Assembly: GCF_003334305.1 (NCBI RefSeq)
Contig: NZ_QOWS01000017.1
DNA length: 64,000 bases
Source: Escherichia coli
Lineage (GTDB): Bacteria > Pseudomonadota > Gammaproteobacteria > Enterobacterales > Enterobacteriaceae
Direction: 5' to 3' (one strand)
Below are positions 1 through 21,877 of the stretch, one piece after another. How positions within the stretch are numbered: the stretch's first letter is position 1; every line of letters starts with the position of its first letter. The notes beneath the pieces were generated by a model, which saw only the letters and a program-made list of their open reading frames with translations, had not been told where the DNA came from and did no database searches. The position numbers were made by a program, and so were the translations under genes.

Positions 1-52
1 AGTTAATGCAACCGGCACGGAATGCAGTCATCTGTCACAGGGAGGAAAGCAA

Positions 53-373
53 ATGAAAACCCCCTTACCGCCCGTCTTACGCGCAGCCCTTTACCGTCGC
101 GCTGTCGCCTGTGCCTGGCTGACCGTGTGCGAACGTCAGCACCGCTACCCGCATCTCACCCTTGAATCACTGGAGGCGGCCATCGCCGCTGAGCTGGAAG
201 GCTTTTATCTGCGCCAGCACGGTGAGGAAAAAGGGCGTCAGATAGCCTGTGCCCTGCTGGAAGATTTAATGGAATCCGGCCCCCTGAAGGCCGCGCCGTC
301 GCTGTCCTTTCTCGGGCTGGTTGTGATGGATGAACTCTGTGCCCGTCACATAAAAGCGCCGGTACTGCACTGA
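53..373 (+). CDS. hypothetical protein, P4-like satellite early region (106 aa)
   Basis: ORF with GGAGG RBS a few nt upstream of ATG; co-directional with and 15 bp upstream of the alpha-type primase gene; no motif recognised. Confidence 0.5.
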
Positions 374-387
374 AGGAGAACAACACC

Positions 388-3203: not shown

Positions 3204-3808
3204 TCAAGAAAATCAATAACTTAGCTTAACTTCTCTAAGAAATTGTATCTTCTGTTATCACTTACAAACGCCTATACGTTGTTATGGGCTTTGGTAGTGT
3301 AACACGTATGGGCGAGTAGTTCCCAGGCTCAACCTCGTAACAAGTTCCTTTGAAGCTGGAAGACGTGCCACCGTCTCTAAACCTTCTACCAAAACTCTTA
3401 GCAAGATGTTCCACACCTGGCGCGGTGTCCAATGATGCTACACGTCGTGAGACGTTGCAGAGGATAAACAGGCTAAATGATGGGAAGAGTTTTAAGTGCA
3501 ATAGTGGATTAAAGCCCACCTCTTCAAAACCTAACTTGATCGGGAAAGAATCAAGCTCTAGCACGGTTTCGTCCACCGGAGTACAACGGGTGCCTGATAA
3601 GAGAAGAACTGCTAAGACTTCATAGCTTTTGTGAAAAAGCCCTTTTTAGTGGATACGCCTACGGCGCTTATTTTTTGGTATAACCATCAAAGGCGCTTTA
3701 TGGCTCCTATTGTCTTGAAAATGTATCTTTACTTGTATTGTGTTTTATGCGTAGTCTCCCTGTGTAGTATGTAACTTGTTAATTTTCATATGAATACAGA
3801 GGCACACG

Positions 3809-3967
3809 ATGAAAAACATTGCAGCTATCAAACGGAATAACCGCAAGATTCACGCTCGTAAGTTCCTGTCTACGCCAGAAGGAAAAGCCTGGCTAGAGCG
3901 TAAACAGAGAGAAAACGAAGAAAGAAAACTCCTTAGTGAGTTGAAATGGCTTAGAGAGGATTTCTGA
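3809..3967 (+). CDS. small basic protein (52 aa), hypothetical
   Basis: ATG with AGAGG-like RBS; Lys/Arg-rich; below the size cut-off of the ORF track; translated by hand. Confidence 0.3.
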   Translation: MKNIAAIKRNNRKIHARKFLSTPEGKAWLERKQRENEERKLLSELKWLREDF

Positions 3968-4260
3968 AAATCTCCAGAACGCAACAGGACGCATTCTAAC
4001 GCTGTTTTCATTACTCGGTATAGGGATTATAGGTGATGTGTGTTTAATGCGTCTGTGAGCTTGTTTTGTGCCTTATTTTGCATTTTCATAATGCAGGAGA
4101 GAACACGGAAAGCCTTAAAATTAATTATTGGGGTATTTAAGGCTATTTTTAGGTTATTTAAGGGTATTAAACTTGATTTAATTGATTGAAATATAAACAG
4201 ATAATTATGTATCTTATTGATTTATAAGGTTATTTTTAAATAAAGGTAAATAAAAAATAA

Positions 4261-4300
4261 ATAGCCATAAATAGCTATAAATACATCTAAATACCTATAT
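4261..4300. repeat. four tandem 10-bp A-rich units (ATAGCCATAA / ATAGCTATAA / ATACATCTAA / ATACCTATAT)
   Basis: Read directly; 10-bp period equals the helical repeat, suggesting bent DNA or a phased binding site. Confidence 0.6.
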
Positions 4301-4713
4301 CCCTTCCCTTATGGCTAGATTGCGAGAAGTGCTTAACGCGATTTTCAGCGCCCCCCGATCTGGAAAATCCAGAATCCCCAAATATCAGCAAGGAATTTTC
4401 TTGCGTAATCAACATCGTTTTTACCTATTAAATCATTACACAGAAAGCCTTTCTGTAATGTCTCTCACTAAACTTTCACTAAACACGAGAATGATCGGTT
4501 TTATGTCGGATCAGATGCTAGAAATAGCACCACGTCTCACAAGGGCTGTAAGCGATGAAACCAGTGTTTATGCGGGTGCAGGTCAAAATATAGGCCAAAA
4601 TACATTTAACATAATAAACGTAATATGCACTAAGGAACACATAGAACGCCTTGAGTTGATGTATCAGGGGAAAAGTGGTGGATTTTTTACGTAGGAGCAC
4701 GAGAGGGCTTCTA

Positions 4714-4741
4714 TTGACTTTTGTATGCTATGAAATATAAT
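4714..4741 (+). promoter_or_regulatory. candidate sigma70 promoter (TTGACT-16-TATAAT)
   Basis: Consensus-like hexamers with 16-bp spacer; no convincing ORF downstream, so it may drive a non-coding transcript through the repeat region. Confidence 0.35.
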
Positions 4742-5088
4742 AGAAGGTTTTTTTATGTTGATAGTGATTGCACATTAAAGATTGAAAGCAAATTTAAACA
4801 TAAATTTTCAACACGTGAAAGAGAACTTGTTCGACAAATGATAAAACGTTTATTGAGCAACAATTTTGCAGTGATGCGCTATATGCCGAATTACACAAGG
4901 CTTTGCGAAAGTGATGTAAAAGTGAAGAAAGTAAGAATTGCAACTTTAAGCTACTTTTCATTGAATTTTTTAGTATGGAATTACACAGGAATAAGTTAGG
5001 GATATTCTATGATTTACACAGGGAATATAGGGGGATTATGGCACACACATAGAAAGACATTACACAAAGTGCTATGTGACAAATGGAT

Positions 5089-5300
5089 GTAACGAGAGGT
5101 TACATTCAGCTATCTGAAATGCTCTCTGTAAGAAAGTTGGTAGTAACGATATGTTACATAGACTAATTATTGAATGTAACGATATTACACATCGGTAGTA
5201 ACGATACGTTACATCGACTAATTATTGAATGTAACGATATTACACATCGGTAGTAACGATACGTTACATCGACAGATGATTGGATGTAACGAAAGGTTAC
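5089..5300. repeat. array of seven 15-bp palindromic sites GTAACGA(t/a)A(t/c)GTTAC (iteron/operator/centromere-like)
   Basis: Sites start at 5089, 5143, 5176, 5198, 5231, 5253 and 5286; spacings 54/33/22/33/22/33 bp are all near multiples of 11 bp; includes a 56-bp unit repeated in tandem. Confidence 0.8.
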
Positions 5301-6398
5301 ACAATAAGACTATATTATTTATAATACTAAATAAAACTATATTAGATTATTAATTAGATCATAATAATATTCTTTATATCTATATATATGATCTTTTGCC
5401 TTCCGGCGTTAGCTTCACTCCCTGGCAAGCAGCCTTACTCCGCTACCTTTCGGGCTACGTTGGCTGGCCCGTTCCGCTCACACCGAAAGCAAAGCGTTAC
5501 TTTCTTCGTGTAACTATCGTGGCGGTAACGCCCACGAAGAAATACTATTGCGCTGTGCGCAGAAGAGTAATCACCTAACCAATCATAGATTGCTTATGTG
5601 TTAACTCTCTCTACCTCTTAATTCCACTTCCTACATTTAATAACTCTGTTATTCTCTGTAGTTGTGTAATTACTCGAAGAGAGAGCGGCTAAAGCTCAAT
5701 TACACTCTGCTTTCCTCGTGTAAGTTCACTAAGCCTCAATACAATTTCACTTCCTACATTCTGTAGTCGTGTAATTGTTTTCGGTGGAAAAGCCAGAGGC
5801 GACACCGAAAGAGAATTCTGATCTTATTAATCTTATCTATCTTAGTTAATCTTCTTACTTTATCTACTTTATTATTAATAATAGCTTTATAAGCTCTGTG
5901 TAGCTCTCTGACGCAAGAAACAGCATTCAGGAAGGGAATCACCTTAGAAAAGGTGTTCTTTGCGTCATAATGTGTTTTATGAAGGATTCAGAGGTGTTTC
6001 ATAACAGGAATGTATAGAGGATATTTTAATTAATTAAAAATAAGGGGTCTAAATGCTTCTCTAACAACATTAAGCAGGGTAGGGAATGGAAACGCATTGC
6101 CTACATATAATAAGCTCACTACAGGGCTTTACAGAGCGTTTTATAAAGTGACTCTCTGTTTTATATTTACCATTACCTTTTCATATACCTAACAAATACA
6201 AAATAAGCCCCTTCAATAAGCCTCTGGCGAGCGAAACAGCCATTAGATAAGGGAATGTATTGCTTTTATCAAAATCTCGTCAGAATGCGATTGAGAGTGT
6301 TTTAGCGGATAATGAAGAATAGCACTACATAGAAGAGCACGAATTGTTAAGCAAAATCATAACATACTGAAAAAGATCAGTTTTTTTGTGAAAAGGTA

Positions 6399-6427
6399 TT
6401 GACAAACGTCTCTTTCTGTGCAATAAT
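6399..6427 (+). promoter_or_regulatory. candidate sigma70 promoter (TTGACA-17-AATAAT) for the cargo operon
   Basis: Consensus -35 and near-consensus -10; about 125 nt upstream of the first RBS-preceded ORF, with a hairpin-rich leader. Confidence 0.5.
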
Positions 6428-6554
6428 AGGTATTAGAGGGGACAGGAATAGATTCTTATCCTCTAAATAATTAAACCAATGCACCGCACTTTGAAGCCCA
6501 AGAGGCTTGCAAGGTGTTTTTTCTTTTAACCAAATCGAATAAGGAGGCTAATTA

Positions 6555-6731
6555 ATGAAATATTTCACTCCACAGGATGTAGTAGAAGCCTGGAAACGTG
6601 GTGAGATCAACCGCTTTAAAGTAAGGATGTATAGAAACACCGCTCGCCGTTGTGGTTATCCAGAGCGTGAAAAATGTTTTGACGATGCACTGAAAATTAT
6701 TGATGAACTGCGTAAAGCTGAGAAAGAATAA
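6555..6731 (+). CDS. hypothetical small protein (58 aa)
   Basis: AAGGAGG RBS 6 nt upstream of ATG; first gene after the promoter; translated by hand. Confidence 0.5.
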   Translation: MKYFTPQDVVEAWKRGEINRFKVRMYRNTARRCGYPEREKCFDDALKIIDELRKAEKE

Positions 6732-6753
6732 TAGACAAGAGAAGGAGAAAACT

Positions 6754-6921
6754 ATGAGCGAAACTAAGAAACCAATTCCGCGCACTTACCTTCACGTTGA
6801 CCCTGAAATCTTCAAGGTTTTATTTGCTGAAGCCAAGAAAAGGCAAATTATGGTCAGTGATTTGATGTTAGAAATCATTACTGAAGCAGCAGAGAACATC
6901 AAACAAAAAAAGGGTAAGTGA
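6754..6921 (+). CDS. ribbon-helix-helix-like DNA-binding protein (55 aa)
   Basis: GAAGGAG RBS; N-terminal beta-strand-like segment (RTYLHV) followed by two short helices, an Arc/CopG-type pattern; inferred from sequence pattern only. Confidence 0.5.
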   Translation: MSETKKPIPRTYLHVDPEIFKVLFAEAKKRQIMVSDLMLEIITEAAENIKQKKGK

Positions 6922-6974
6922 TCCTCATTCACTTTAGTAGCGCATTAAGCGTGATTTATAAGGAGATGATTCTA

Positions 6975-7718
6975 ATGTCTAAAATTAAATTGATTCGTGA
7001 AAAATACCAGTATGTTGATAAACAAACAGGAGAAATTAAAGACCGAACTTTGAATATACCGCATTACTTTTGTGAGATTGAATTTATCTACTCCTCAAGT
7101 GTTGATGGTGGAAAAGTTAAGTTTAGTGCAGAAATGCAAAAATTATATTGCTATGTTTCAGATTGGGAGAAATCAGGGGGGATATGTTTTGAAACACAAA
7201 CGAAGTTAAGTAAAGTTTGTGGCTGTAGCCGTAAGACAGTTAATGAACTGATTGGTCTTATGATTAAAATCGGTCTTTTAGAAGAGGTCGGAGAACGAAT
7301 TCCAAAACGTCCTTTAAAATTACGTGCGCTACCTCTCACAGATGCACATATTACTCCCCCAGGAGAATCATCACTCTCTGATCTTTCTGAGGCAGAAGAA
7401 GCACAGGAACAACCTAAAGGCCATAAACAGCCTTCTTTTGATGTTCTTGATGATTGGGATGCGCCTTTACCGTGGGAGACGGAAGAAACACCTGTTTCAT
7501 CAAGTGAAAAGGTAGCTAATGATAATGAGGAGGATGTATTAGAGAATTTTGCCTCTCTTATCATCCAGGAGAAACACACAAGAACAGGAGGAGCATCATT
7601 TATTGAGTTTGCAAATTCACTAGCTTATAGATACGGGCTAAAACGACCAAATGGTATTGAGGCATATTTTTCTAAGAATTACCCAAATGTATATGATGAA
7701 TTTGATATTCCCTTTTAA
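6975..7718 (+). CDS. winged-helix DNA-binding protein with acidic linker (247 aa), possible replication initiator or regulator
   Basis: AAGGAG RBS; helix-turn-helix-like segment LSKVCGCSRKTVNELIGLMIKIGLLEE; Asp/Glu-rich middle; stop overlaps the next RBS. Confidence 0.55.
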   Translation: MSKIKLIREKYQYVDKQTGEIKDRTLNIPHYFCEIEFIYSSSVDGGKVKFSAEMQKLYCYVSDWEKSGGICFETQTKLSKVCGCSRKTVNELIGLMIKIGLLEEVGERIPKRPLKLRALPLTDAHITPPGESSLSDLSEAEEAQEQPKGHKQPSFDVLDDWDAPLPWETEETPVSSSEKVANDNEEDVLENFASLIIQEKHTRTGGASFIEFANSLAYRYGLKRPNGIEAYFSKNYPNVYDEFDIPF

Positions 7719-7748
7719 TAAGGAGGACTATGATTCAATATTTAGTAA

Positions 7749-8009
7749 AAAAATCAAGTAGACAGAATTCAGTGTAATGACACAGGAAAACGCATCTACG
7801 AAACACTTGCTTACCTCTATAAAGGAAAGCCAACACCGCTAAAATATAGCGATGTGTTACATCGAGCAGGGTGCTCTGAAGCTGGTTTAAAATTCTGGCT
7901 GAAACAGCTATCAAATTTCGGTGTTATTGAAATGAAAGAGCTGTCTTTTTCTACATTCAATCTCAAAAGATTAGATAAAGAAATAGAATTCATCTATTCC
8001 ACTCTCTAA
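7749..8009 (+). CDS. second winged-helix-like ORF lacking a canonical start (frameshift/slippage or pseudogene candidate)
   Basis: Open frame encoding ...YSDVLHRAGCSEAGLKFWLKQLSNFGVIEM...; an AGGAGG-ATG at 7730 opens a 15-codon ORF in another frame that crosses an A7 run (7747-7753) directly before this frame opens. Confidence 0.3.
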   Translation, partial: KNQVDRIQCNDTGKRIYETLAYLYKGKPTPLKYSDVLHRAGCSEAGLKFWLKQLSNFGVIEMKELSFSTFNLKRLDKEIEFIYSTL

Positions 8010-8141
8010 AATCTCTCTATGTAATTAAAATATAAAAGGAAAACATTATTATGATAGTAGCTATGTATTGGTTATTGTTCTTTCTCACGTTAGAAGCATA
8101 CTTTGGGGTGTTTTCCTTTAAAAGAAAAGGAAAAGTAAATA

Positions 8142-8558
8142 ATGGCAAAAAGAAAAAACAACGTTGTTAAGAAAATCGGTGATTCAGCTTCTCTTCTAAG
8201 TAAACCTAAACCTAAATCTATTCTAAGACGTAAAGACTTTAAAGAGCTAGTTACGCTCACCAAGCAAAATAGCGCCCCTGGCGAATGGAAAACAGAGATC
8301 ATAGAACATTCTCCCTCTGTGCCTTGTGGAGATGAATTTAACGCCTTGCAAGAAATCTTATCTTCAACACCTGGCGTATTCTGGAAACCTAGAAAAAGAA
8401 AAGAGTATATCGTTGATAGCTCTGATTTACGCAAATACCAGATTTTAGGATTTGAAGATTATAACCACTACGTCGGTTATCTCGCCACCAATGGCCTAAA
8501 TAATTTAGTTCCTGAATTCCAAATTTTAGATAATGCTGATCACTATGGAGACTTTTAA
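8142..8558 (+). CDS. hypothetical protein (138 aa), basic N-terminus
   Basis: ATG preceded by AAAGGAAAAG; no motif recognised. Confidence 0.5.
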   Translation: MAKRKNNVVKKIGDSASLLSKPKPKSILRRKDFKELVTLTKQNSAPGEWKTEIIEHSPSVPCGDEFNALQEILSSTPGVFWKPRKRKEYIVDSSDLRKYQILGFEDYNHYVGYLATNGLNNLVPEFQILDNADHYGDF

Positions 8559-8559
8559 T

Positions 8560-8898
8560 ATGAACAAAAACACGTATGACACAATTTATTCACTAATTAA
8601 TTATTATGAGGATGATTACCTCCTGCCTTTAAACCGCGCTGAACTTGAAGCATACAAAGAAAACACGCCAGGGGCGCTAAATGAGGCGTTTAAACACTGG
8701 GATTTAGCTGTGAATGCCTTTGAGCACCTTTCTAAAAGAGTAGAGATGCTCTGTAAGCGTGAAAACGCATACCTGACAGCCGATCAGATATGGGAGCTAT
8801 CAAACTGGATAGAAGATATTGAATCTGATGTTCGCTATGTAGGGGATGGCCTGGTTGAATTAGCTCAACGCTTAGGCGCTACTATCACAGAAGAATAA
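8560..8898 (+). CDS. hypothetical acidic protein (112 aa)
   Basis: ATG 8560 with GGAG 7 nt upstream, 1 nt after the previous stop; an in-frame upstream ATG at 8533 would overlap the previous gene. Confidence 0.5.
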   Translation: MNKNTYDTIYSLINYYEDDYLLPLNRAELEAYKENTPGALNEAFKHWDLAVNAFEHLSKRVEMLCKRENAYLTADQIWELSNWIEDIESDVRYVGDGLVELAQRLGATITEE

Positions 8899-8927
8899 AA
8901 AAAGCAACAAAAAAGTTGTAAAATATC

Positions 8928-8956
8928 TTGACATTCCATCTATTGTATGTTAATAT
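8928..8956 (+). promoter_or_regulatory. candidate sigma70 promoter (TTGACA-17-TAATAT)
   Basis: Consensus -35; located in a 350-bp gap inside the operon. Confidence 0.45.
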
Positions 8957-9093
8957 AATTATATAGGGGTGATTATTTTTCCTTTATTGGTTCGATATTA
9001 AAAATTCTTCCTGTCATTAAAGGGGAGTAAAATCTCCGCTCCCCGCTTCTCCTCCTTAAGTAAATACTGTGTCATTATACCTCTTTTTTCCTT

Positions 9094-9125
9094 TGTTATG
9101 CATACATCTTGGAGTATGCATAACA
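9094..9125. promoter_or_regulatory. 12-bp perfect inverted repeat TGTTATGCATAC-N8-GTATGCATAACA (operator or RNA hairpin)
   Basis: Read directly; lies between the 8928 promoter and the next gene. Confidence 0.6.
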
Positions 9126-9165
9126 TAGGGTAATTACATAGGTATGAGTTAATAAAAGGCGGCTC

Positions 9166-9189
9166 TAAATGCTGCCTTTTATTTTGCCC
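9166..9189 (+). terminator. weak intrinsic terminator or attenuator
   Basis: AGGCGGC-tctaaat-GCTGCCT stem with one G-U pair, followed by TTTTATTTT. Confidence 0.4.
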
Positions 9190-9247
9190 GTTATGCAACT
9201 TAAAAGTTGTATTTCTTACTTTAAAAAAGGTAACAAGGTTTATATAA

Positions 9248-9460
9248 ATGTTGTTTTTAAACGATAAAGAGCAAATCATCAAGTATAAAGATGAAATGCT
9301 GAAAATTAATCCACAAATTACCGAAATGGTAGCTAAATACGCTGGGTGTTCTGTCGAGGAAGTAGAAAGATGTGTTGAAAAATATTTTTCTCCTTCTACT
9401 CCGTCTACACCTTCCCTTAATGAATTAATCAAATTAAAAGCTAAGGAGATTACTAAATGA
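9248..9460 (+). CDS. hypothetical protein (70 aa)
   Basis: ATG with AAGG upstream; stop overlaps the start of the next gene (ATGA). Confidence 0.5.
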   Translation: MLFLNDKEQIIKYKDEMLKINPQITEMVAKYAGCSVEEVERCVEKYFSPSTPSTPSLNELIKLKAKEITK

Positions 9461-9819
9461 TTATTGATTTAGACACTCTGTTTCCAGTTAGAAAGACTTT
9501 CACAGATATTGTAAGTTATTGTACTGATCCGTTTGCCTCTGTAGAAAGCAAGGTTTTTGCTTCTCTTCCTGCTGATGTTGAGTGCGGCGACTTGATCACC
9601 AGTACTGGCGCTAAATATGAATCAGGAGATGATATCTATGTTGTTATGAGTGAATTTGTAACGGCTGGAGAAAACAAGCCTGTAGATGTGCTACGTAGTA
9701 ATGCTGGTCTTGTCTGCATCAAAGCTGATGCGCTGAATGCTGTAAGTGAAGCAGCAAAAACAGCATTAATTAAAAAAGGCTTCCAGCTTGAAGGGTTCCA
9801 TTCTGTTTTCACTTCTTAA
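9457..9819 (+). CDS. hypothetical protein (120 aa)
   Basis: AAGGAG RBS; translationally coupled to the upstream ORF. Confidence 0.55.
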   Translation: MIIDLDTLFPVRKTFTDIVSYCTDPFASVESKVFASLPADVECGDLITSTGAKYESGDDIYVVMSEFVTAGENKPVDVLRSNAGLVCIKADALNAVSEAAKTALIKKGFQLEGFHSVFTS

Positions 9820-9837
9820 TAAAAGGAATAATAATAA

Positions 9838-10869
9838 ATGATTCTAGGTAATGATTACGTTGATTTAGCTCCGCTTTTCCAGGCACACAGCACTAGAAAC
9901 TTTCTGCTCTCTACCCTCGACTTCACTGATCCGGTGGGCGTTAGTTCTCATAAAGTAGCTGTTTCTCAGCTTGTCGAAAGCAACGAATCTCTGTTCAACA
10001 AAGAAACCTCTCGTTTCTCTTCTGAACACAATGTTACTAAGCGTGAACAAGGTAAAGAATGGCTGATTGAAATCCCGTATTTTCTTCGTGAAGATGTGAT
10101 CCGTCCTTCTGATGTTCAAGGCAAGCGTAAGCCTGGCACTGATTTTCAGGAAACACTCACTGATATCTATGCGGAATATATCGCTAAACACCACGTAGCG
10201 TATCAGCGTACAAAAGAGAGCGTGTTGGCTGCATCTCTGTTTAGCGGTAAAACTTACACGCCTAAAACTGATGATGTTCTTATCGAGTGGGGCAAGCTGT
10301 TTAACGTGGCACCTATGAAAGCCACCTTGAACGCTTCCAGCACTGACACAATGACCGTTTTCAAGCAATTTGACCAGCTTGCTACGGATATGATTGCTAA
10401 GGCACAAAACCAGGCTGCAACCATTGAGCGTGTTGTTGTGTTCTGTAAACCTGCGGCATTCAACGCTATTCGTTACAGTGTTGGTATGGTCAATGCTTTC
10501 CAATATGCAAGCCCTGTAGACGATGCCAACGTGGTGTTTAATGTGCGTTCCCTGCTACCAGGTGTAACTACTTTCACCATTCCAGGAACTAACATTGACC
10601 TGATCAAAGTGACTGATCCGCTACACCTTGCACATATGGCTTCTGATGCGGTTGCTGTGCCTAAATTCGCTAAGGGGGCAGGTGTTTACCAATCTATCTA
10701 TGGGGCAGCTTCCAGCACCTTTGAACTGATCAATGCCGCTCCTGCTGAGGTGTATAGCTATAGCTATGAATCTTCTTCTCGTGGTGATGCTGTTAACGTT
10801 GTTACAGAGAATAGCCAGATGGTGGTAAACCACGGCGTTGGTTTCTCCGTTCAAATCACTGTTAAATAA
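9838..10869 (+). CDS. hypothetical protein (343 aa), no motif recognised
   Basis: Long ORF in AT-rich DNA with AAGGA RBS; followed by a strong terminator. Confidence 0.65.
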   Translation: MILGNDYVDLAPLFQAHSTRNFLLSTLDFTDPVGVSSHKVAVSQLVESNESLFNKETSRFSSEHNVTKREQGKEWLIEIPYFLREDVIRPSDVQGKRKPGTDFQETLTDIYAEYIAKHHVAYQRTKESVLAASLFSGKTYTPKTDDVLIEWGKLFNVAPMKATLNASSTDTMTVFKQFDQLATDMIAKAQNQAATIERVVVFCKPAAFNAIRYSVGMVNAFQYASPVDDANVVFNVRSLLPGVTTFTIPGTNIDLIKVTDPLHLAHMASDAVAVPKFAKGAGVYQSIYGAASSTFELINAAPAEVYSYSYESSSRGDAVNVVTENSQMVVNHGVGFSVQITVK

Positions 10870-10887
10870 TATTTTAACGTGTAATAG

Positions 10888-10925
10888 AGGCGTGGCGTGA
10901 ATAACACGCTTCGCCTTTTTTTATT
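10888..10925 (+). terminator. rho-independent terminator
   Basis: Nested hairpin AGGCG-tg-GCGTG-aataa-CACGC-tt-CGCCT followed by a T-rich run. Confidence 0.65.
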
Positions 10926-10955
10926 TATTTTTAAATTTTGAGAGGTGATTAAAAT

Positions 10956-11159
10956 ATGGAAGTGATTCTGAAATCAAAAAATGGTGTACACGTTTATTTA
11001 GATGCTAATGATTCAAGAGGCTTGTTAAATCTGAAATATCTATGTTCTCTCTTGGATGTTCCATATGAAGGCGTAAAAGCCCGAATGTTCAGATTAAACG
11101 AGAGTATTGATCAAGCTCTACACCATTTCTTAAGCAAAGAAGGTGGTAAAAATGATTAA
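10956..11159 (+). CDS. hypothetical protein (67 aa)
   Basis: GAGAGGTGA RBS; 15 bp upstream of the 612-aa gene. Confidence 0.45.
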   Translation: MEVILKSKNGVHVYLDANDSRGLLNLKYLCSLLDVPYEGVKARMFRLNESIDQALHHFLSKEGGKND

Positions 11160-11173
11160 TAAGGGGATTTTAA

Positions 11174-13012
11174 ATGTTAGAAATTAACACTTCTAAAATT
11201 AAGAACACAGTAACATTTAGTGTAGATAAAGACAGCTTGAAAAAAGCGAAAGACTCTATTACAGGCTTAAAGGAATTCACAGAAAACATCAAGCCAGCTA
11301 AATTAAGGTTTGATAGTGTCACTAAAGGCTATAAGAAAGCACAAAGCGAAGTAGACAAGATTGCTCAACAGAAAGCTAAAACAGAAAAGCAGAATCAAAG
11401 AGCACAAGCTGCCGCAGCAAGAGCACAGGCAAGGCAACAGACACAAATAGCAGCACGTAAAGAGAAAGCAGAATTAAAGCTCCTCGATGTGTCAAGCTCT
11501 ATCAGTGCAATGCACCGCCTCTCTGTAGCGGAACAATACAAAGCTATTGCACAGGCTAGAGAGATAGCAAAACAATATGAGCAAGGGGCTATCTCGCTTG
11601 CACGTATGAATAGTCAGATGAAACGCCTACAACAGCAACAACGTAAGATTAATGGCAACAGAAAAGCTCAATTAGCCCCCGTTAAGGGAGGAGGATCAGG
11701 GAATTCCGCCACGATGGGTGCTCTGTTATTTGGAGGCGCTACAGCGGCTGCTGGCGTGATGGCTGTTAGTAAAGCGTCGGAGTTTGTTAGTAACAGTTTC
11801 GCTAACGCAGAGACACAAGGTGAGCTAATTCAACGTGCAAGGCTTGGCGGTGTAGACGTTAACCAGATGTACAACATTACAGAATGGGCCTATAGAAACG
11901 GCGTTGACTCTATGATGGGTGATCAAGGGGCTAGGAAATACCTGGATCAGATGAAAGATGTTAGGGAACGTGCCGCAAAATCCTATAGTGAAGCTGAATA
12001 TGTAGTCGATAAAAAAACTGGTAAAGGCGGCGAATGGAAAGGCGGTGATAACGCTATTAATGAACTTCTAAACATCGGTGTTATTAACAAGAGCGACCTT
12101 AAAAAATTTGCTGATAATCCAGCCGGATTAATTTCTAAGGCTGTTAATGGAATGATGAAAAAAGGGTTTTCAGACTCCCAAATTGGACAACGTTTAGAAG
12201 ACCTGGGTGATGATTTGATGCTTACATCAAAATATTGGCAACGTTCCGTTAAAGATGTACAAACAAGCATCGAGCAGCAAAAAGCCTCTGGAAAATGGCT
12301 AACAGAAACACAGCAAGATTCTATTGTTAAATTCAGAGAACTAAACAGACAGCTTTCACAGCTTTCTGATGCAAGACAAGTAGCATTTGTAGACGGCTTT
12401 ATGAAATCTCTCGATCCAAAAGTAACGGAAGAGTTTATGAAAAACCTTTCTAATCTCACTCCGTATTTTACAAAGCTGGGAGAAGCTACAGGAAGTCTCT
12501 TTGAAGCTATTATGAAGATTGTAAACTGGTTTAATCGTAATGATGATAAGACAGATGCTATTCAGAAAAATTTAGGTGATGCACCGCCATTAAGCAATGA
12601 AGGAATGAAACAGAATCTTTCTAATCTCGTTCCTGATCAATATAAAGGCGCTGGCACCGGAACAACTAAGCCAGATAACAGCAATTCCCTGTTTAACACT
12701 ATTAAGGGATTGCTTTTCGATGATAAGTCTTCTTCTGTGTCAGATGTAAAAATGTCAGTCAGCGAAGCACCGATAACCAATCTCAAACAGGGCGCTTTAA
12801 ATAATCTTGCAATGACAACTCCGGCTTATAATTTATCTCCTGTGTTTAATCTGAATCCTACATTTGAAGTGGTAACAGAGGTTCCTCTTACTATTAATTC
12901 TGACACATCAAGATTAAGCGATTATGTGGATTTTACAGCGAGATCAAGTCGGGATAGCTTCTTGAAATCATTAACATTAACCAGCTTATCAGGACAATCT
13001 AACGGCGGGTAA
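11174..13012 (+). CDS. large coiled-coil protein with central Gly-rich hydrophobic segment (612 aa); tape-measure-like or membrane-interacting, function unknown
   Basis: AAGGGG RBS; N-terminal approx. 150 aa rich in Q/A/R/K/E; segment GGGSGNSATMGALLFGGATAAAGVMAV; no NTP-binding or catalytic motif seen. Confidence 0.7.
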   Translation: MLEINTSKIKNTVTFSVDKDSLKKAKDSITGLKEFTENIKPAKLRFDSVTKGYKKAQSEVDKIAQQKAKTEKQNQRAQAAAARAQARQQTQIAARKEKAELKLLDVSSSISAMHRLSVAEQYKAIAQAREIAKQYEQGAISLARMNSQMKRLQQQQRKINGNRKAQLAPVKGGGSGNSATMGALLFGGATAAAGVMAVSKASEFVSNSFANAETQGELIQRARLGGVDVNQMYNITEWAYRNGVDSMMGDQGARKYLDQMKDVRERAAKSYSEAEYVVDKKTGKGGEWKGGDNAINELLNIGVINKSDLKKFADNPAGLISKAVNGMMKKGFSDSQIGQRLEDLGDDLMLTSKYWQRSVKDVQTSIEQQKASGKWLTETQQDSIVKFRELNRQLSQLSDARQVAFVDGFMKSLDPKVTEEFMKNLSNLTPYFTKLGEATGSLFEAIMKIVNWFNRNDDKTDAIQKNLGDAPPLSNEGMKQNLSNLVPDQYKGAGTGTTKPDNSNSLFNTIKGLLFDDKSSSVSDVKMSVSEAPITNLKQGALNNLAMTTPAYNLSPVFNLNPTFEVVTEVPLTINSDTSRLSDYVDFTARSSRDSFLKSLTLTSLSGQSNGG

Positions 13013-13046
13013 TTCCCGCCATAACATTACAAGGAAAATTATTATT

Positions 13047-13760
13047 ATGGCGACCGCCGGGATTTTAACCATACGTGCAGCAAATACTCCAGAACAACAC
13101 GTTCAGGCTGTTTACAAAGCAGAACAAGATATAAATTCTACAAAAAACGAAAATAGCAAAGCTAATAAAACAAAAGGAGAGAACGGATTTGCTATTGTTA
13201 CCAGTGGCTTGGCATCTTCTGGCAATGACGTTTATGAAAATTATATGGCCCTGGCCTTTGACAGTGTAGACGATGTGAACGTGAGACGTTCGGCAGATGT
13301 CACAAGCTACCCCGTAGAAAATGGTGCTACTGTGTCTGATCACGTTCAAATTAAAAACAATAAGTTTTCTCTTAAAGGAAGGATCACTGAAACACCGATT
13401 AAAAGCGATCCTGGCTTGTTAAAGAGTGCAGGGGTGAACGGGAACAGAAGATCATTAGCCATAGACTACTTGAATCAGATTATGGACAGTAGACAGCCTT
13501 TTCTTCTTGTTACAGAAAATAAAACTTTTGAGAACGTTGTTTTAACAGGCATCGAATACACAGAAGAGGCAAGCGAATCCCTGGTATTTGATCTTAGCTT
13601 TGAGCAGATCAGATTAGTTTCTTATGGCACTGTATCCACTATTGCACTTAAAACACAACCATCTAAGAACATCGGGGCGAATATGAAAAAACGTGTTAAC
13701 ACTGAAAAATCAAGTAGTGAAGGTGAAGACACTATTACTCCTGCCTTTAAGCAGAAATAG
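13047..13760 (+). CDS. hypothetical protein (237 aa)
   Basis: AAGGA RBS; last gene of the + strand operon, convergent with the integrase. Confidence 0.6.
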   Translation: MATAGILTIRAANTPEQHVQAVYKAEQDINSTKNENSKANKTKGENGFAIVTSGLASSGNDVYENYMALAFDSVDDVNVRRSADVTSYPVENGATVSDHVQIKNNKFSLKGRITETPIKSDPGLLKSAGVNGNRRSLAIDYLNQIMDSRQPFLLVTENKTFENVVLTGIEYTEEASESLVFDLSFEQIRLVSYGTVSTIALKTQPSKNIGANMKKRVNTEKSSSEGEDTITPAFKQK

Positions 13761-13803
13761 CCGTAAACGCCTCTAAAACGCTCTGTAACGATGTAATTAT
13801 AAA

Positions 13804-13840
13804 AGAGGCTGCCAATCTATGTTGAAGCCTCTTTATTGTG
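13804..13840. terminator. bidirectional terminator between convergent operon and integrase
   Basis: AGAGGCT-N15-AGCCTCT hairpin flanked by T-rich runs on both strands. Confidence 0.5.
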
Positions 13841-13841
13841 T

Positions 13842-15176
13842 TTATGGCGTTGTTTTACGCCTTAAATTTGATTTTTTATTGATTGATAAGCCTTTCTCTA
13901 TTTCAGGGTAGCGTAGAAGCTCAATATAGTTTTTAAGCTCTACTGGAGAAGCTGCATTCTTGCTATATGTGCGGAATGTCTCTGTATTGCCGCGTGTATG
14001 GCCCAGGAGAAGGGCGATCCTGTCTTCTGGAATTTGATTTCGATCAAGAAGCTGTGCTACTCCGTGTCTCAGAGAATGAAACACTTTCCTTTCTGTTCCC
14101 TTTTCCCCTAAAGCCTTTCGTTTAGCTCTTGTAAATCTCTGCGTGTGCCACGTGGAACGTTTACCATCAGCACGCTCTGTAATGCTGGCGTGATAGAACA
14201 AAAAGCCATTATGAGGCTTTTCACGCAGCGACAACACCAACGGAGTGATAAGGCTATGTACAGGCACAACACGTGCCGCAGCTTTCGTTTTTCCCTGTGT
14301 GATTTCAAAACACAGCACACCTTCGATCTCTTTCACATCGTCTATTGTGAGACTTGCTATCTCATTGATCCGCATACCTGTATATAAACCGATAAGACAC
14401 AAAGCCATCATTTCTTTGTTTTCTGCTGAATTACCGGAAAATACTTGCAACACCTGCAATAGCTCTTTGTTAGAAAATGCCTCGTAGCTCTCTCTACTTT
14501 GTGCCACATCAAGCCTATGCCCTCGCCAGGGGGAGAGCGCCCTTTCTGGCGCATCGTGGTAACGTGATGAAGCTAACTCCCATAGCTGGGCTATTGGGCT
14601 GATATAATTTGCAATTGATTGTTGTGAAAGAGTTTTTTGCATGTGTTCTATCCAGCCTGTAACAGTGGTGCGGCTCACATCTTGCAATGCAATATCAGGC
14701 TTTTTACGGTAGGAGAGAAACATCTCTACCGCTTTTCTTGCCTTAGCTAAAGTGGCTGGCTTCTTCTTCGTGCTGTTAATTGTCAGGTAGATTTCAAGAA
14801 TTTTAAGCAATGACGGACACGAAGACGCTGTATCTTGCATTCTGGTAGCTGTTTTGGCGTATTTAGCCTTACTGCGTAACAGCTCCAGCGTGTTCTCTAT
14901 TGTGCTGTTTACAGGGGCGACACTCTCCCGTAGGCAATGGTATTCATCTGCAATCTGATCACGCTTTCTACGTGCAACACGAAGATTATTTGTGTGTAGA
15001 CTTCTGACAAACGTCCTTTTTCCTTCAAAAAAGGGCTGCATATACACAGGCAGCGTGATCCTTAAATAGTAGTTACCGTAAGAATCACAGATTAAGTATT
15101 GGTTAGGCTTGTATCTCATAAAATCTCCGGCTAAAGTGTCGGAGCGTTTGTAATGTGAAAATTGATTGTAACGCAT
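13842..15176 (-). CDS. tyrosine-type site-specific integrase
   Basis: Box I GMRINE, box II HSLRHG, LLGH, and a C-terminal tyrosine in TFRTYS; ATG at 15176 (a TTG at 15206 gives the 454-aa track ORF); sits directly inside the right att copy. Confidence 0.85.
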   Translation of the reverse strand: MRYNQFSHYKRSDTLAGDFMRYKPNQYLICDSYGNYYLRITLPVYMQPFFEGKRTFVRSLHTNNLRVARRKRDQIADEYHCLRESVAPVNSTIENTLELLRSKAKYAKTATRMQDTASSCPSLLKILEIYLTINSTKKKPATLAKARKAVEMFLSYRKKPDIALQDVSRTTVTGWIEHMQKTLSQQSIANYISPIAQLWELASSRYHDAPERALSPWRGHRLDVAQSRESYEAFSNKELLQVLQVFSGNSAENKEMMALCLIGLYTGMRINEIASLTIDDVKEIEGVLCFEITQGKTKAAARVVPVHSLITPLVLSLREKPHNGFLFYHASITERADGKRSTWHTQRFTRAKRKALGEKGTERKVFHSLRHGVAQLLDRNQIPEDRIALLLGHTRGNTETFRTYSKNAASPVELKNYIELLRYPEIEKGLSINKKSNLRRKTTP

Positions 15177-15218
15177 AGAAAATGATAATTTTTCTATAAG
15201 ATTCAATCAATTAGTAAT

Positions 15219-21630: not shown

Positions 21631-21644
21631 TGCATTGAATGATA

Positions 21645-21672
21645 AAAATGGCGCAAATACAGCGCCATTTTT
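21645..21672 (+). terminator. rho-independent terminator after yagU
   Basis: GGCGC-aaataca-GCGCC hairpin followed by ATTTTTA. Confidence 0.55.
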
Positions 21673-21877
21673 ATAGGTTAAAAACATTGCTTTTTATATT
21701 CTGATGCAGATAGTCAGTGAGTATATCGCGCTACTTCAGGATGATGTAGATCCGAAGAACGCTACAGAAGAGAGGCATTGTTGCTGGCAAATAGAAGAAG
21801 TATCGGGTTTTGTTACCCCTGAAAAACGAAGCCCCGCTATTATCGCTGGCGGGGCATTGCAATTAATTATTGTATGT

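What the first reader, a model, noticed from the sequence alone, without database searches (positions are those of the whole stretch)
8928..9189. Internal promoter, 12-bp palindrome and terminator define a possible ~220-nt RNA or attenuator inside the operon
A TTGACA-17-TAATAT promoter (8928-8956) is followed by a perfect inverted repeat TGTTATGCATAC-N8-GTATGCATAACA (9094-9125) and a hairpin plus T-run (9166-9189), with no ORF longer than about 10 codons before the next gene at 9248. This could be a small RNA, a riboregulated leader, or an operator controlling the downstream half of the operon.
Basis: seen in the sequence. Interest (0 to 1): 0.4.

Follow-up and report, generated by a model that had tools for sequence, protein, structure and literature searches.

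The report
Terminator-gated leader before capsid genes
A strong promoter, a tightly folded ~220-nt untranslated RNA and a terminator sit just in front of the capsid genes of an uncharacterised phage-like island in E. coli. The same layout recurs in relatives from seven other genera, so it most likely keeps those genes off until transcription reads through the terminator.

Summary
TTGACA-17-TGtTAATAT (8928-8956), a perfect 12-bp inverted repeat (9094-9105/9114-9125, 16 bp with flanks) and a hairpin plus T-run (stem 9151-9183, Ts 9177-9185) lie in the 349-nt gap between two same-strand gene modules.

The window is E. coli A7. The gap lies inside an ~11-kb AT-rich integrative element carrying an O-like replication initiator, a gpE-type capsid gene, tape-measure-like and Dit-like genes and an integrase.

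In ten lineages of this family (E. coli groups A and B, Klebsiella x2, Enterobacter, Citrobacter, Cronobacter, Dryocola, Sodalis, one metagenome) the equivalent gap always has the same three features:
- It opens with TTGACA-17/18-TAnnnT and then A(U)RGGG.
- It holds a 220-950 nt non-coding stretch that folds far better than shuffles (z -5.5 to -9.5).
- It ends with a canonical intrinsic terminator 45-75 nt before the first structural gene, with no promoter in between.

Pairing is RNA-like and plus-strand (G.U much commoner than A.C; compensatory changes).

Best reading: a promoter-proximal, terminator-gated leader like lambda PR'-6S RNA-tR'. The short RNA is the default product and the capsid module needs read-through. 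No antiterminator was identified. The palindrome is most likely an RNA hairpin, not an operator. Interest is moderate.

The parts
8904..8919 (.). O1: small inverted repeat GCAAC-AAAAAA-GTTGT, 9 bp upstream of the -35 hexamer; candidate protein-binding site
   Evidence: (D1). This and O2 are the only two exact matches to GCAACNNNNNNGTTGT in the 64-kb window. It is invariant in group A apart from a 1-nt spacer deletion in L016.
8928..8956 (+). Sigma-70 promoter: -35 TTGACA (8928-8933), 17-nt spacer, extended -10 TGtTAATAT (8948-8956)
   Evidence: 10/12, TG present. Hexamers invariant in 19 distinct E. coli copies. The same architecture opens the gap in 10 of 10 lineages, with a perfect TTGACA in 9.
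8963..8969 (+). Predicted transcription start and conserved 5' motif AUAGGGG (family consensus A(U)RGGG, starting about 7 nt after the -10)
   Evidence: The block -10 / 6 nt / A(T)RGGG is kept even where the upstream genes and the rest of the leader are unrelated. The start point is inferred, not measured.
8963..9185 (+). Predicted ~220-nt untranslated leader / short RNA
   Evidence: MFE -69.2 kcal/mol, z -5.9, against -56.5 and z -4.0 for the minus strand. No Rfam family reaches its threshold.
9022..9044 (+). Hairpin H1: GGGGAGU / GCUCCCC
   Evidence: -12.2 kcal/mol, z -2.5. It lies in the near-invariant block 8963-9056.
9046..9060 (+). Single-stranded CU-rich stretch CUUCUCCUCCUUAAG; CCUCCUUA matches the 3' end of 16S rRNA (own knowledge)
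   Evidence: Unpaired in the fold. A C(C/U)UCCU motif recurs upstream of the terminator in 7 of the 10 leaders sampled, and CUCC is 47:7 plus:minus over the ten leaders. Function untested; no predicted pairing to the first-gene ribosome-binding site.
9090..9129 (+).
   Evidence: (I3). The only variant, A9116G, gives U.G in plus-strand RNA. The sequence occurs in IMG/VR only in copies of this same element.
9138..9154 (+). Dispensable linker between H2 and the terminator (17-nt deletion in 7 of 19 distinct copies)
9151..9185 (+). Intrinsic terminator: 13-bp stem (GC core GGCGGC/GCUGCC), 7-nt loop, U-tract UUUUAUUUU
   Evidence: (I5). Stem invariant; the only change is C9165T in the loop. A canonical terminator lies 45-75 nt before the start codon in 9 of 10 lineages, and a weaker large-loop hairpin plus T-run in group B.
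9195..9210 (.). O2: second copy GCAAC-TTAAAA-GTTGT between the terminator and the ribosome-binding site
   Evidence: G9195A in four copies makes the palindrome more symmetric. Other lineages also carry a small inverted repeat at this position.
9248..9460 (+). First gene (70 aa) of the structural module. It is followed by a 120-aa ORF at 9457-9819 (gpD-like by position and size only), the gpE-type capsid gene at 9838-10869, a 67-aa ORF, a tape-measure-like gene at 11174-13012 and a Dit-like gene at 13047-13760
   Evidence: No sigma-70-like promoter lies between the terminator and this start codon in any lineage.

Best explanation
This is the regulatory junction between the replication/regulation module and the structural (capsid, tape-measure-like, Dit-like) module of an integrative, phage-like element.

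Host sigma-70 RNA polymerase starts at a near-consensus extended -10 promoter (8928-8956). It transcribes an untranslated, strongly folded leader consisting of a 5' AUAGGGG motif, hairpin H1, a CU-rich single strand and the long hairpin H2 (the 'palindrome'). By default it then stops at the intrinsic terminator (9151-9185) and releases an RNA of about 220 nt. The same terminator also ends any transcripts arriving from the upstream operon.

The capsid module has no promoter of its own. It is therefore expressed only when polymerase reads through the terminator, either at a low basal rate or after modification by an antitermination factor. That factor could come from the element's early genes or from a helper phage. 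It works like lambda PR'-6S RNA-tR'.

Shown: the sequence elements, their order, their conservation, and plus-strand RNA-type pairing. Inferred: the start site, the termination efficiency, the need for read-through, and the existence of an antiterminator.
For: (1) The order promoter, leader, terminator, first structural gene is present in 10 of 10 lineages, whose capsid proteins are down to 41% identical. The leader sequences are otherwise unrelated between lineages.

(2) A scan of each whole gap finds the conserved promoter at its start and no promoter-like site between the last terminator and the start codon.

(3) The promoter lies upstream of the terminator every time. That order makes no sense if the terminator only closed the early operon.

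(4) Several lineages carry two terminators in tandem (L031, L004, lineage C).

(5) All leaders fold far better than shuffles: z -5.9, -8.2, -5.5, -6.9 and -9.5.

(6) In lineage C, 91% of cells are paired against 83.5% in shuffles (0/500) and 42-48% when partners are slid. 35 pairs carry compensatory changes against 21 in shuffles and 9-15 slid. There are 102 G.U against 15 A.C cells on the plus strand, and every plus-strand MFE is 13-30 kcal/mol lower than the minus strand.

(7) In the window's own group the hexamers, H2 and the terminator stem are invariant. Indels are confined to the linkers 9056-9090 and 9138-9154, and the one stem change is U.G.

(8) For most E. coli copies the gap is more conserved (95-99% identity) than the surrounding 2.5 kb (90-95%).
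Against: No antiterminator was identified. The two conserved proteins just upstream (138 aa and 112 aa) have no Pfam, PHROG, PADLOC or PDB-fold match. The 112-aa protein is a generic three-helix bundle.

No similarity to lambdoid PR' regions or to any GenBank phage was found.

The role of H2 is unexplained, and the window has only one terminator.

There are no expression data, so the terminator could be leaky enough for constitutive expression.

The covariation evidence comes from a sister lineage, not from the window's own near-invariant sequence. The structure tested was predicted on the same five sequences.
Confidence: 0.5

Rival explanations
1. A stand-alone, trans-acting small RNA. The ~220-nt transcript is the functional product, for example binding Shine-Dalgarno regions of host, helper-phage or element mRNAs through its CU-rich single strand. 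The capsid genes would be transcribed independently of it. This is not exclusive with the main explanation, since lambda 6S RNA is also a terminated leader.
For: It has its own strong promoter and a terminator with a U-tail. A single-stranded CUCCUCCUUAA stretch is present, and CUCC is biased 47:7 to the plus strand across the ten leaders. Structure is plus-strand-specific. There is a weak resemblance to the Hfq-binding RNA STnc250 (19.1 bits, E 0.36).
Against: Length (220-950 nt) and sequence are not conserved between lineages, which is unusual for an sRNA with a fixed target. It is always placed immediately 5' of the structural genes with no intervening promoter. The STnc250 score is far below the gathering threshold of 42. 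No target was identified.
Confidence: 0.2
2. DNA-level control. The 12-bp palindrome, and/or the O1/O2 pair, is an operator bound by a dimeric regulator of the element. It would repress the promoter by looping or block elongation as a roadblock.
For: The 12-bp symmetry is perfect. O1 and O2 are the only exact GCAAC-N6-GTTGT sites in 64 kb, and they bracket the promoter, leader and terminator 291 bp apart. L028 has similar GTAAAC-A6-GTTAC and GTAAC-N6-GTTAT sites at equivalent positions. The element encodes small candidate DNA-binding proteins (55 and 58 aa; the ribbon-helix-helix reading of the 55-aa ORF is my own and was not confirmed).
Against: For the large palindrome: A9116G in 7 of 19 distinct copies breaks the DNA symmetry but keeps RNA pairing. 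It lies about 130-160 nt downstream of the start site. There are no further copies of the half-site in the window beyond chance, and it is absent from other lineages. The family-wide excess of G.U over A.C argues for selection on RNA. O1/O2 remain a plausible extra layer and are compatible with the main explanation.
Confidence: 0.12
3. A classical cis-attenuator or riboswitch. A ligand, a stalled ribosome or a tRNA would switch the leader between antiterminator and terminator folds.
For: A structured leader ends in a terminator in front of the genes it would control.
Against: No sequence is able to compete with either terminator arm except weak AU-only pairings. No conserved leader peptide exists; the small ORFs differ between lineages and are broken by indels. 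No Rfam riboswitch or leader family matches, even at E up to 10. The 17 nt directly upstream of the terminator are dispensable.
Confidence: 0.08
4. A DNA site for packaging (cos/pac), replication or recombination. It would lie at the head of the structural module, as cos lies before Nu1 in lambda.
For: Its position is just upstream of the capsid genes. It contains a long perfect dyad, and the element lacks its own terminase, so it would need a site recognised by a helper.
Against: The dyad sequence occurs in IMG/VR only in copies of this element. The gap has no match in 50,697 GenBank phage records. The dyad is not conserved across the family, whereas the promoter and terminator are. The strand-asymmetric G.U pattern points to RNA. 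No inversion or excision variants were seen among the copies examined.
Confidence: 0.05

Closest known systems
Lambdoid late control: PR' promoter, 6S RNA, tR' terminator, Q antiterminator
   Same: A strong constitutive sigma-70 promoter is placed just after the last early gene. A short (~200 nt) terminated transcript is the default product. The late/structural genes have no promoter of their own and depend on read-through.
   Different: No Q-family protein is encoded: the 112-aa and 138-aa upstream proteins match nothing. No sequence similarity to any phage PR' region was found. The leaders here are much more structured and reach 950 nt. A Q-binding element or sigma-dependent pause was not demonstrated.
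Satellite P4 immunity region (PLE leader, CI RNA, premature termination)
   Same: In a satellite-like element, a constitutive promoter is followed by a structured leader in which transcription termination decides whether the downstream operon is expressed. The leader RNA itself is a stable product.
   Different: P4 termination is triggered by pairing of the processed CI RNA (seqB) with two complementary sites (seqA, seqC). No such triple complementarity is present here. P4 controls replication genes, whereas this leader precedes capsid genes. There is no sequence or Rfam similarity.
RNA-hairpin-dependent processive antitermination (lambda N-nut boxB; HK022 put)
   Same: Stable hairpins in the nascent leader lie upstream of terminators. 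The 138-aa upstream protein has a basic, low-confidence (probably disordered) N-terminus, which is loosely reminiscent of N.
   Different: H2 has a 12-16 bp stem and an 8-nt loop, unlike the 5-bp boxB with its pentaloop or the two-stem put fold. I recognised no boxA outside a terminator arm on reading the sequences (no pattern search was run). There is no homology to N.
Rho-independent, Hfq-type enterobacterial sRNAs (e.g. Rfam RF01409 STnc250)
   Same: Own promoter, an internal hairpin followed by a terminator hairpin with a U-tail, and a single-stranded pyrimidine-rich segment.
   Different: The Rfam score is 19.1 bits against a gathering score of 42. It is not an independent intergenic gene but is fixed 5' of an operon. 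It is not conserved in sequence across the element family.

Membership tests
Lambdoid Q-dependent late promoter region (PR'-tR') | Strong constitutive sigma-70 promoter immediately downstream of the early operon | tested here: met
   TTGACA-17-TGtTAATAT lies 30 nt after the upstream stop codon. The equivalent promoter lies 13-93 nt after the stop in 10 of 10 lineages.
Lambdoid Q-dependent late promoter region (PR'-tR') | Intrinsic terminator within a few hundred nt, giving a short leader RNA, with no other promoter before the late genes | tested here: met
   The terminator at 9151-9185 is about 220 nt from the predicted start. No promoter-like site lies between 9186 and 9247. This is in silico only.
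Lambdoid Q-dependent late promoter region (PR'-tR') | A Q-family antiterminator gene (Pfam Antiterm, Phage_antitermQ or Phage_antiter_Q) directly upstream | tested here: not met
   The upstream 112-aa and 138-aa proteins have no Pfam, PHROG or PDB-fold match.
Lambdoid Q-dependent late promoter region (PR'-tR') | Q-binding element in the promoter and a sigma-70-dependent promoter-proximal pause | not testable with these tools
   -10-like A/T-rich hexamers follow the conserved GGG at about +8 to +17 in most lineages. In DNA with 36% G+C this is not informative. It needs KMnO4 or pause mapping.
P4-type RNA immunity (CI RNA) | A leader segment (seqB) complementary to two other leader sites (seqA, seqC) | tested here: not met
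   The repeat and inverted-repeat inventory of 8850-9300 shows only the H2 and terminator dyads and short AU-rich matches.
Riboswitch or classical attenuator | Mutually exclusive antiterminator/terminator pairings, or a match to a known aptamer or leader family | tested here: not met
   No Rfam match at E up to 10 other than chance-level hits. There is no competing pairing. The 17 nt upstream of the terminator are deletable.
Rfam RF01409 STnc250 (Hfq-binding sRNA) | Score at or above the family gathering threshold (42 bits) | tested here: not met
   19.1 bits, E 0.36, at 9092-9188.
Structured cis-regulatory RNA under selection (generic) | Base pairs maintained by compensatory and G.U changes, specific to one strand | tested here: inconclusive
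   In the window's own group there is only one informative change (A9116G, giving U.G). In sister lineage C the test is clearly met: 35 compensated pairs, 0/500 shuffles, 102 G.U against 15 A.C. That is a different sequence, and the structure was predicted on the same five sequences.
Invertible promoter switch (inverton) | Both orientations of the segment between the flanking repeats found among genomes | tested here: not met
   O1 and O2 are in direct orientation. The listed 2.5-kb matches are single co-linear pieces, and the 19 distinct copies aligned have the same orientation.

The most novel reading that the evidence does not exclude
The gap encodes a member of an undescribed class of long, highly structured leader RNAs (220-950 nt). 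This class would be specific to a widespread, uncharacterised satellite-like element family of Enterobacterales, whose members carry their own lambda-E-type capsid gene plus phi92-like tape-measure and Dit genes but no terminase or portal. The RNA would act as the switch that senses helper-phage infection, for example through a helper-encoded or element-encoded factor that binds the conserved 5' A(U)RGGG motif or the hairpins and makes polymerase terminator-resistant. That would couple capsid-module expression to the helper's cycle.
Probability: 0.15. Interest if true: 0.75.

Novelty: new variant of a known kind. Interest (0 to 1): 0.42.

Why it matters
The element occurs in 6-8% of complete E. 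coli genomes and in at least seven other enterobacterial genera. Three searches of the literature library found no description of it. It carries capsid and tail-related genes but lacks a packaging machine, so when and how those genes are switched on is the key to what the element does (satellite, assembly-poisoning defence, or decaying prophage). The promoter-leader-terminator junction is the obvious control point and gives a simple experimental handle. The predicted outcomes are a ~220-nt RNA in uninfected cells and read-through on induction or helper infection. Finding the factor that causes read-through would identify either a new antiterminator or the helper phage. On its own, a terminator-gated late operon is a familiar design.

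Tried and rejected
- Rfam: the gathering search on the window gave only IS009 elsewhere. The E-value search on 8700-9400 gave only chance-level hits, the best being STnc250 at 19 bits.
- Megablast and blastn of the region against GenBank phages and PLSDB plasmids found nothing.
- An exact-pattern scan of IMG/VR for the palindrome, looking for a shared cos/pac site in a helper, found only copies of the same element.
- The anti-SD idea, that the CCUCC stretch sequesters the ribosome-binding site of the first gene: RNAduplex of leader against the translation-initiation region in ten lineages gave z between -1.4 and +1.1, and the best sites did not involve the motif. Rejected.
- Leader peptide: the small ORFs are not conserved (sequences).
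- Q-like or N-like antiterminator. The 112-aa protein is a confident three-helix bundle (pLDDT 91) but returns only generic helical-bundle matches. The 138-aa protein gave a poor model (pTM 0.30) and no matches. Pfam, PHROG, NCBIfam and PADLOC were all negative.
- The 55-aa and 58-aa ORFs as ribbon-helix-helix or other regulators: no Pfam support.
- Inverton idea for O1/O2: no inverted copies.
- T4-type late promoter TATAAATA overlapping the start codon: the conserved TTATATAAATG occurs only in groups A and B and would start transcription inside the ORF.
- Three literature searches for the element found nothing specific.

Full report
**Where the window comes from**

The 2.5 kb around the finding is 100% identical to the chromosome of E. 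coli strain A7. It is present in 416 of 5,426 complete E. coli genomes, always on the chromosome, and in no GenBank phage or PLSDB plasmid.

The finding lies inside an AT-rich (~36% G+C) integrative element of about 11 kb. I place its left end at roughly 3460-3970, from the homology limits, and its right end at 15206. The element encodes the following:
- small ORFs at 6555-6921;
- an O-like/HTH_36 replication initiator at 6918-7718;
- two conserved hypothetical proteins, 8142-8558 (138 aa) and 8560-8898 (112 aa);
- the 349-nt gap of the finding, 8899-9247;
- a 70-aa ORF and a 120-aa ORF, the latter in the position of lambda gpD;
- a lambda gpE-type major capsid protein (PF03864) at 9838-10869;
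- a 67-aa ORF;
- a tape-measure-like protein at 11174-13012, 33-36% identical to the tape measure of phi92/Phapecoctavirus phages;
- a Dit-like protein at 13047-13760;
- a tyrosine integrase on the other strand at 13842-15206.

The integrase abuts the yagP/paoD site, which is the right end of CP4-6 in K-12. There is no terminase, portal or protease.

**Check of the observation**

All three elements exist. Details and corrections:
- Promoter: TTGACA (8928-8933), 17 nt, TAATAT (8951-8956) with an upstream TG. It scores 10/12.
- Palindrome: the inverted repeat is perfect over 12 bp (9094-9105/9114-9125) and 94% over 16 bp. Block shuffles of the window give 0.07 such repeats per 64 kb.
- Terminator: a 13-bp stem, 9151-9163/9171-9183, with GC core GGCGGC/GCUGCC and a 7-nt loop, followed by TTTTATTTT at 9177-9185.
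- Stability: as RNA the two hairpins are -21.3 and -18.1 kcal/mol (z -6.5 and -5.3). The 233-nt stretch 8963-9195 folds at -69.2 kcal/mol, z -5.9. The minus strand gives -56.5, z -4.0.
- ORFs: the gap has + strand ORFs of 19 and 32 codons. They lack ribosome-binding sites, and the region tolerates indels that are not multiples of three.

**Variation within E. coli**

Nineteen distinct copies of the gap were aligned. The results:
- Both promoter hexamers, hairpin H2 and the terminator stem are invariant.
- Indels are confined to two linkers, 9056-9090 and 9138-9154. The second is a 17-nt deletion found in seven copies.
- The terminator's single change is in its loop.
- The only change in the palindrome, A9116G in seven copies, breaks the DNA symmetry but gives a U.G pair in plus-strand RNA. 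On the minus strand it would be an A.C mismatch.
- The gap is 95-99% identical in most genomes, whereas the surrounding 2.5 kb is 90-95% identical.

**The family-wide pattern**

Relatives of the capsid protein were traced to a second E. coli group (B: L003, L004, L022, L024-26), two Klebsiella lineages (L028, L029), Enterobacter (L030), Sodalis (L031), a metagenome contig (L044), Citrobacter (L045), Dryocola (L046) and Cronobacter (L048). Gene order is the same throughout. In every case a non-coding gap of 450-990 nt separates the ~112-aa gene from the ~70-aa gene.

The gap sequences are unrelated between lineages apart from short blocks, yet their architecture is constant:
1. 13-93 nt after the upstream stop codon there is TTGACA (9 of 10 lineages; TTTGCA in group B), then a 17-18-nt spacer that ends in TG one base before the -10 in 8 of the 10 lineages, then TAnnnT, six A/T-rich bases, and A(T)RGGG.
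2. Next comes a long untranslated stretch.
3. One or two canonical intrinsic terminators follow. The last is 45-75 nt before the start codon.
4. No sigma-70-like promoter lies between that terminator and the gene.

Between the window and group B, the gene upstream of the promoter is not homologous and the first structural gene is only 27% identical. Even so, the block ATATAATnATA(T)TAGGGGT(A)GAT at the -10 and start site is kept. The promoter is always upstream of the terminator. That order would be pointless if the terminator merely closed the early operon and the promoter drove the late genes directly.

**RNA-level structure**

Every leader tested folds far better than dinucleotide shuffles:

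| Leader | z-score |
|---|---|
| window | -5.9 |
| L004 | -8.2 |
| L031 | -5.5 |
| L029 | -6.9 |
| L030 | -9.5 |

The five lineage-C leaders are divergent enough to test covariation:
- Of 148 consensus pairs, 91.1% of cells are paired. Column shuffles give 83.5% (0 of 500 reach the observed value) and slid partners give 42-48%.
- 35 pairs carry compensatory changes, against 21.3 in shuffles (0/500) and 9-15 when slid.
- One internal terminator hairpin even has its G-run and C-run arms exchanged between members.
- G.U cells outnumber A.C cells 102 to 15 on the plus strand. For a structure predicted on the minus strand the counts are 49 to 36. Every plus-strand MFE is 13-30 kcal/mol lower than the minus strand.

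Caveat: the consensus was predicted on the same five sequences, and this is a sister lineage, not the window's own near-invariant sequence.

**Interpretation**

The simplest mechanism consistent with all of this is a terminator-gated late operon. Host polymerase fires constitutively, or under element control through the small O1/O2 sites. It makes a ~220-nt structured RNA and terminates. The capsid, tape-measure-like and Dit-like genes are expressed only on read-through. This is how the lambdoid PR'-6S RNA-tR' region works, and it is conceptually close to termination control in the P4 PLE leader.

It is not a member of either system:
- No Q-family protein is encoded. The 112-aa protein is a confident but generic three-helix bundle. 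The 138-aa protein has a basic, low-confidence N-terminus and a poorly modelled core. Neither matches Pfam, PHROGs, PADLOC or the PDB.
- No P4-like seqA/B/C complementarity exists.

The antiterminator, if there is one, is therefore unknown and could be supplied by a helper phage.

**What the palindrome is**

It is most likely an RNA hairpin (H2) in the leader. The reasons are:
- its only variant preserves RNA pairing but not DNA symmetry;
- it lies about 130-160 nt inside the transcript;
- its half-site does not recur in the window beyond chance;
- its sequence occurs in IMG/VR only in copies of this element;
- other lineages have different long hairpins at comparable positions.

Its specific role (stability, protein binding, or pausing before the terminator) is open.

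A better operator candidate is GCAAC-N6-GTTGT, which occurs exactly twice in 64 kb. One copy is 9 bp upstream of the -35 (8904-8919). The other lies between the terminator and the ribosome-binding site (9195-9210). L028 has related sites at both positions.

**Other features and negative results**
- A single-stranded CU-rich stretch at 9046-9060 contains CCUCCUUA, the 3' end of 16S rRNA (from my own knowledge). A C(C/U)UCCU motif recurs upstream of the terminator in 7 of the 10 leaders sampled (by eye from the sequences, typically about 40-110 nt upstream). CUCC is 47:7 plus:minus across the ten leaders.
- This stretch is not predicted to pair with the ribosome-binding site of the first gene.
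- No riboswitch or attenuator family, leader peptide or alternative antiterminator fold was found.

**Verdict**

The 'operator' reading of the large palindrome is not.

The design is a known one (a promoter-proximal terminator gating late genes) in a new setting: an apparently undescribed element family, unusually long and structured leaders, and no recognisable antiterminator. I rate it as a new variant of a known kind, of moderate interest (0.42). The element itself is probably more interesting than this junction.

Noticed in passing
window ~3460-15206: An ~11-kb AT-rich integrative element with an O-like replication initiator, a gpE-type capsid gene (preceded by a 120-aa ORF in the gpD position), a phi92-like tape-measure-like protein, a Dit-like protein and an integrase, but no terminase, portal or protease. 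It has the same synteny in E. coli (307-416 of 5,426 genomes), Klebsiella, Enterobacter, Citrobacter, Cronobacter, Dryocola and Sodalis. Three literature searches found no description. It could be a new satellite family or an assembly-interference element.
   Followed up: partly
window 3971-6550: A ~2.6-kb stretch with no convincing ORF (only a 52-aa ORF is annotated just to its left, at 3809-3967). It is conserved at 88-95% among E. coli copies and partly in group B. Comparable non-coding stretches of 1.1-2 kb sit at the same position in other genera. In strain ML775 a yagL-like serine recombinase gene is inserted in it.
   Followed up: partly
window 8904-8919 and 9195-9210: Two copies of GCAAC-N6-GTTGT, the only exact matches in the window, bracket the promoter, leader and terminator 291 bp apart. 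This is a candidate operator pair. L028 has GTAAAC-A6-GTTAC and GTAAC-N6-GTTAT at equivalent positions.
   Followed up: partly
window 9046-9060; equivalent sites in most of the other leaders (L004, L028, L029, L045, L046, L048): A CU-rich single strand containing CCUCCUUA, identical to the 3' end of 16S rRNA. A C(C/U)UCCU motif recurs upstream of the terminator in 7 of the 10 leaders sampled, and CUCC is 47:7 plus:minus over the ten leaders. No pairing to the first-gene ribosome-binding site is predicted.
   Followed up: partly
L011 (E. coli MLI104K2) around the window 8966 equivalent; hit H79 (UTME-14) around the window 8919 equivalent: Two independent IS insertions (IS3 family and IS481 family) lie at or just upstream of the promoter and start site, separating the leader and capsid module from the promoter or from upstream transcription.
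   Followed up: no
window 21636-21835 (+): A full-length match to Rfam RF02111 IS009 (202 bits, gathering score 117), in the core-genome part of the window downstream of paoABCD.
   Followed up: no
window 1-2721: P4-like satellite genes (Icd-like, derepression protein, DUF5375, primase-helicase; ~61% G+C) lie directly to the left of the AT-rich element. Two unrelated mobile elements therefore sit in tandem at this locus.
   Followed up: no
L028/L045 versus L030/L044, alignment A4 columns 506-548: An internal leader terminator keeps its hairpin and T-run while the G-run and C-run arms are exchanged between members. This is a striking compensatory replacement.
   Followed up: yes
L004 4409-5400 (E. 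coli group B): The equivalent gap is 992 nt long with no ORF of 55 aa or more, and folds at z -8.2. It has a terminator-like hairpin about 270 nt from the promoter and a second large-loop hairpin plus T-run 30 nt before the gene. This may be a large structured RNA.
   Followed up: partly
window 9169-9267 (+): A 32-codon ATG ORF starts in the terminator loop and overlaps the start of the 70-aa gene in another frame. It has no ribosome-binding site and no equivalent in other lineages, so it is probably spurious.
   Followed up: partly
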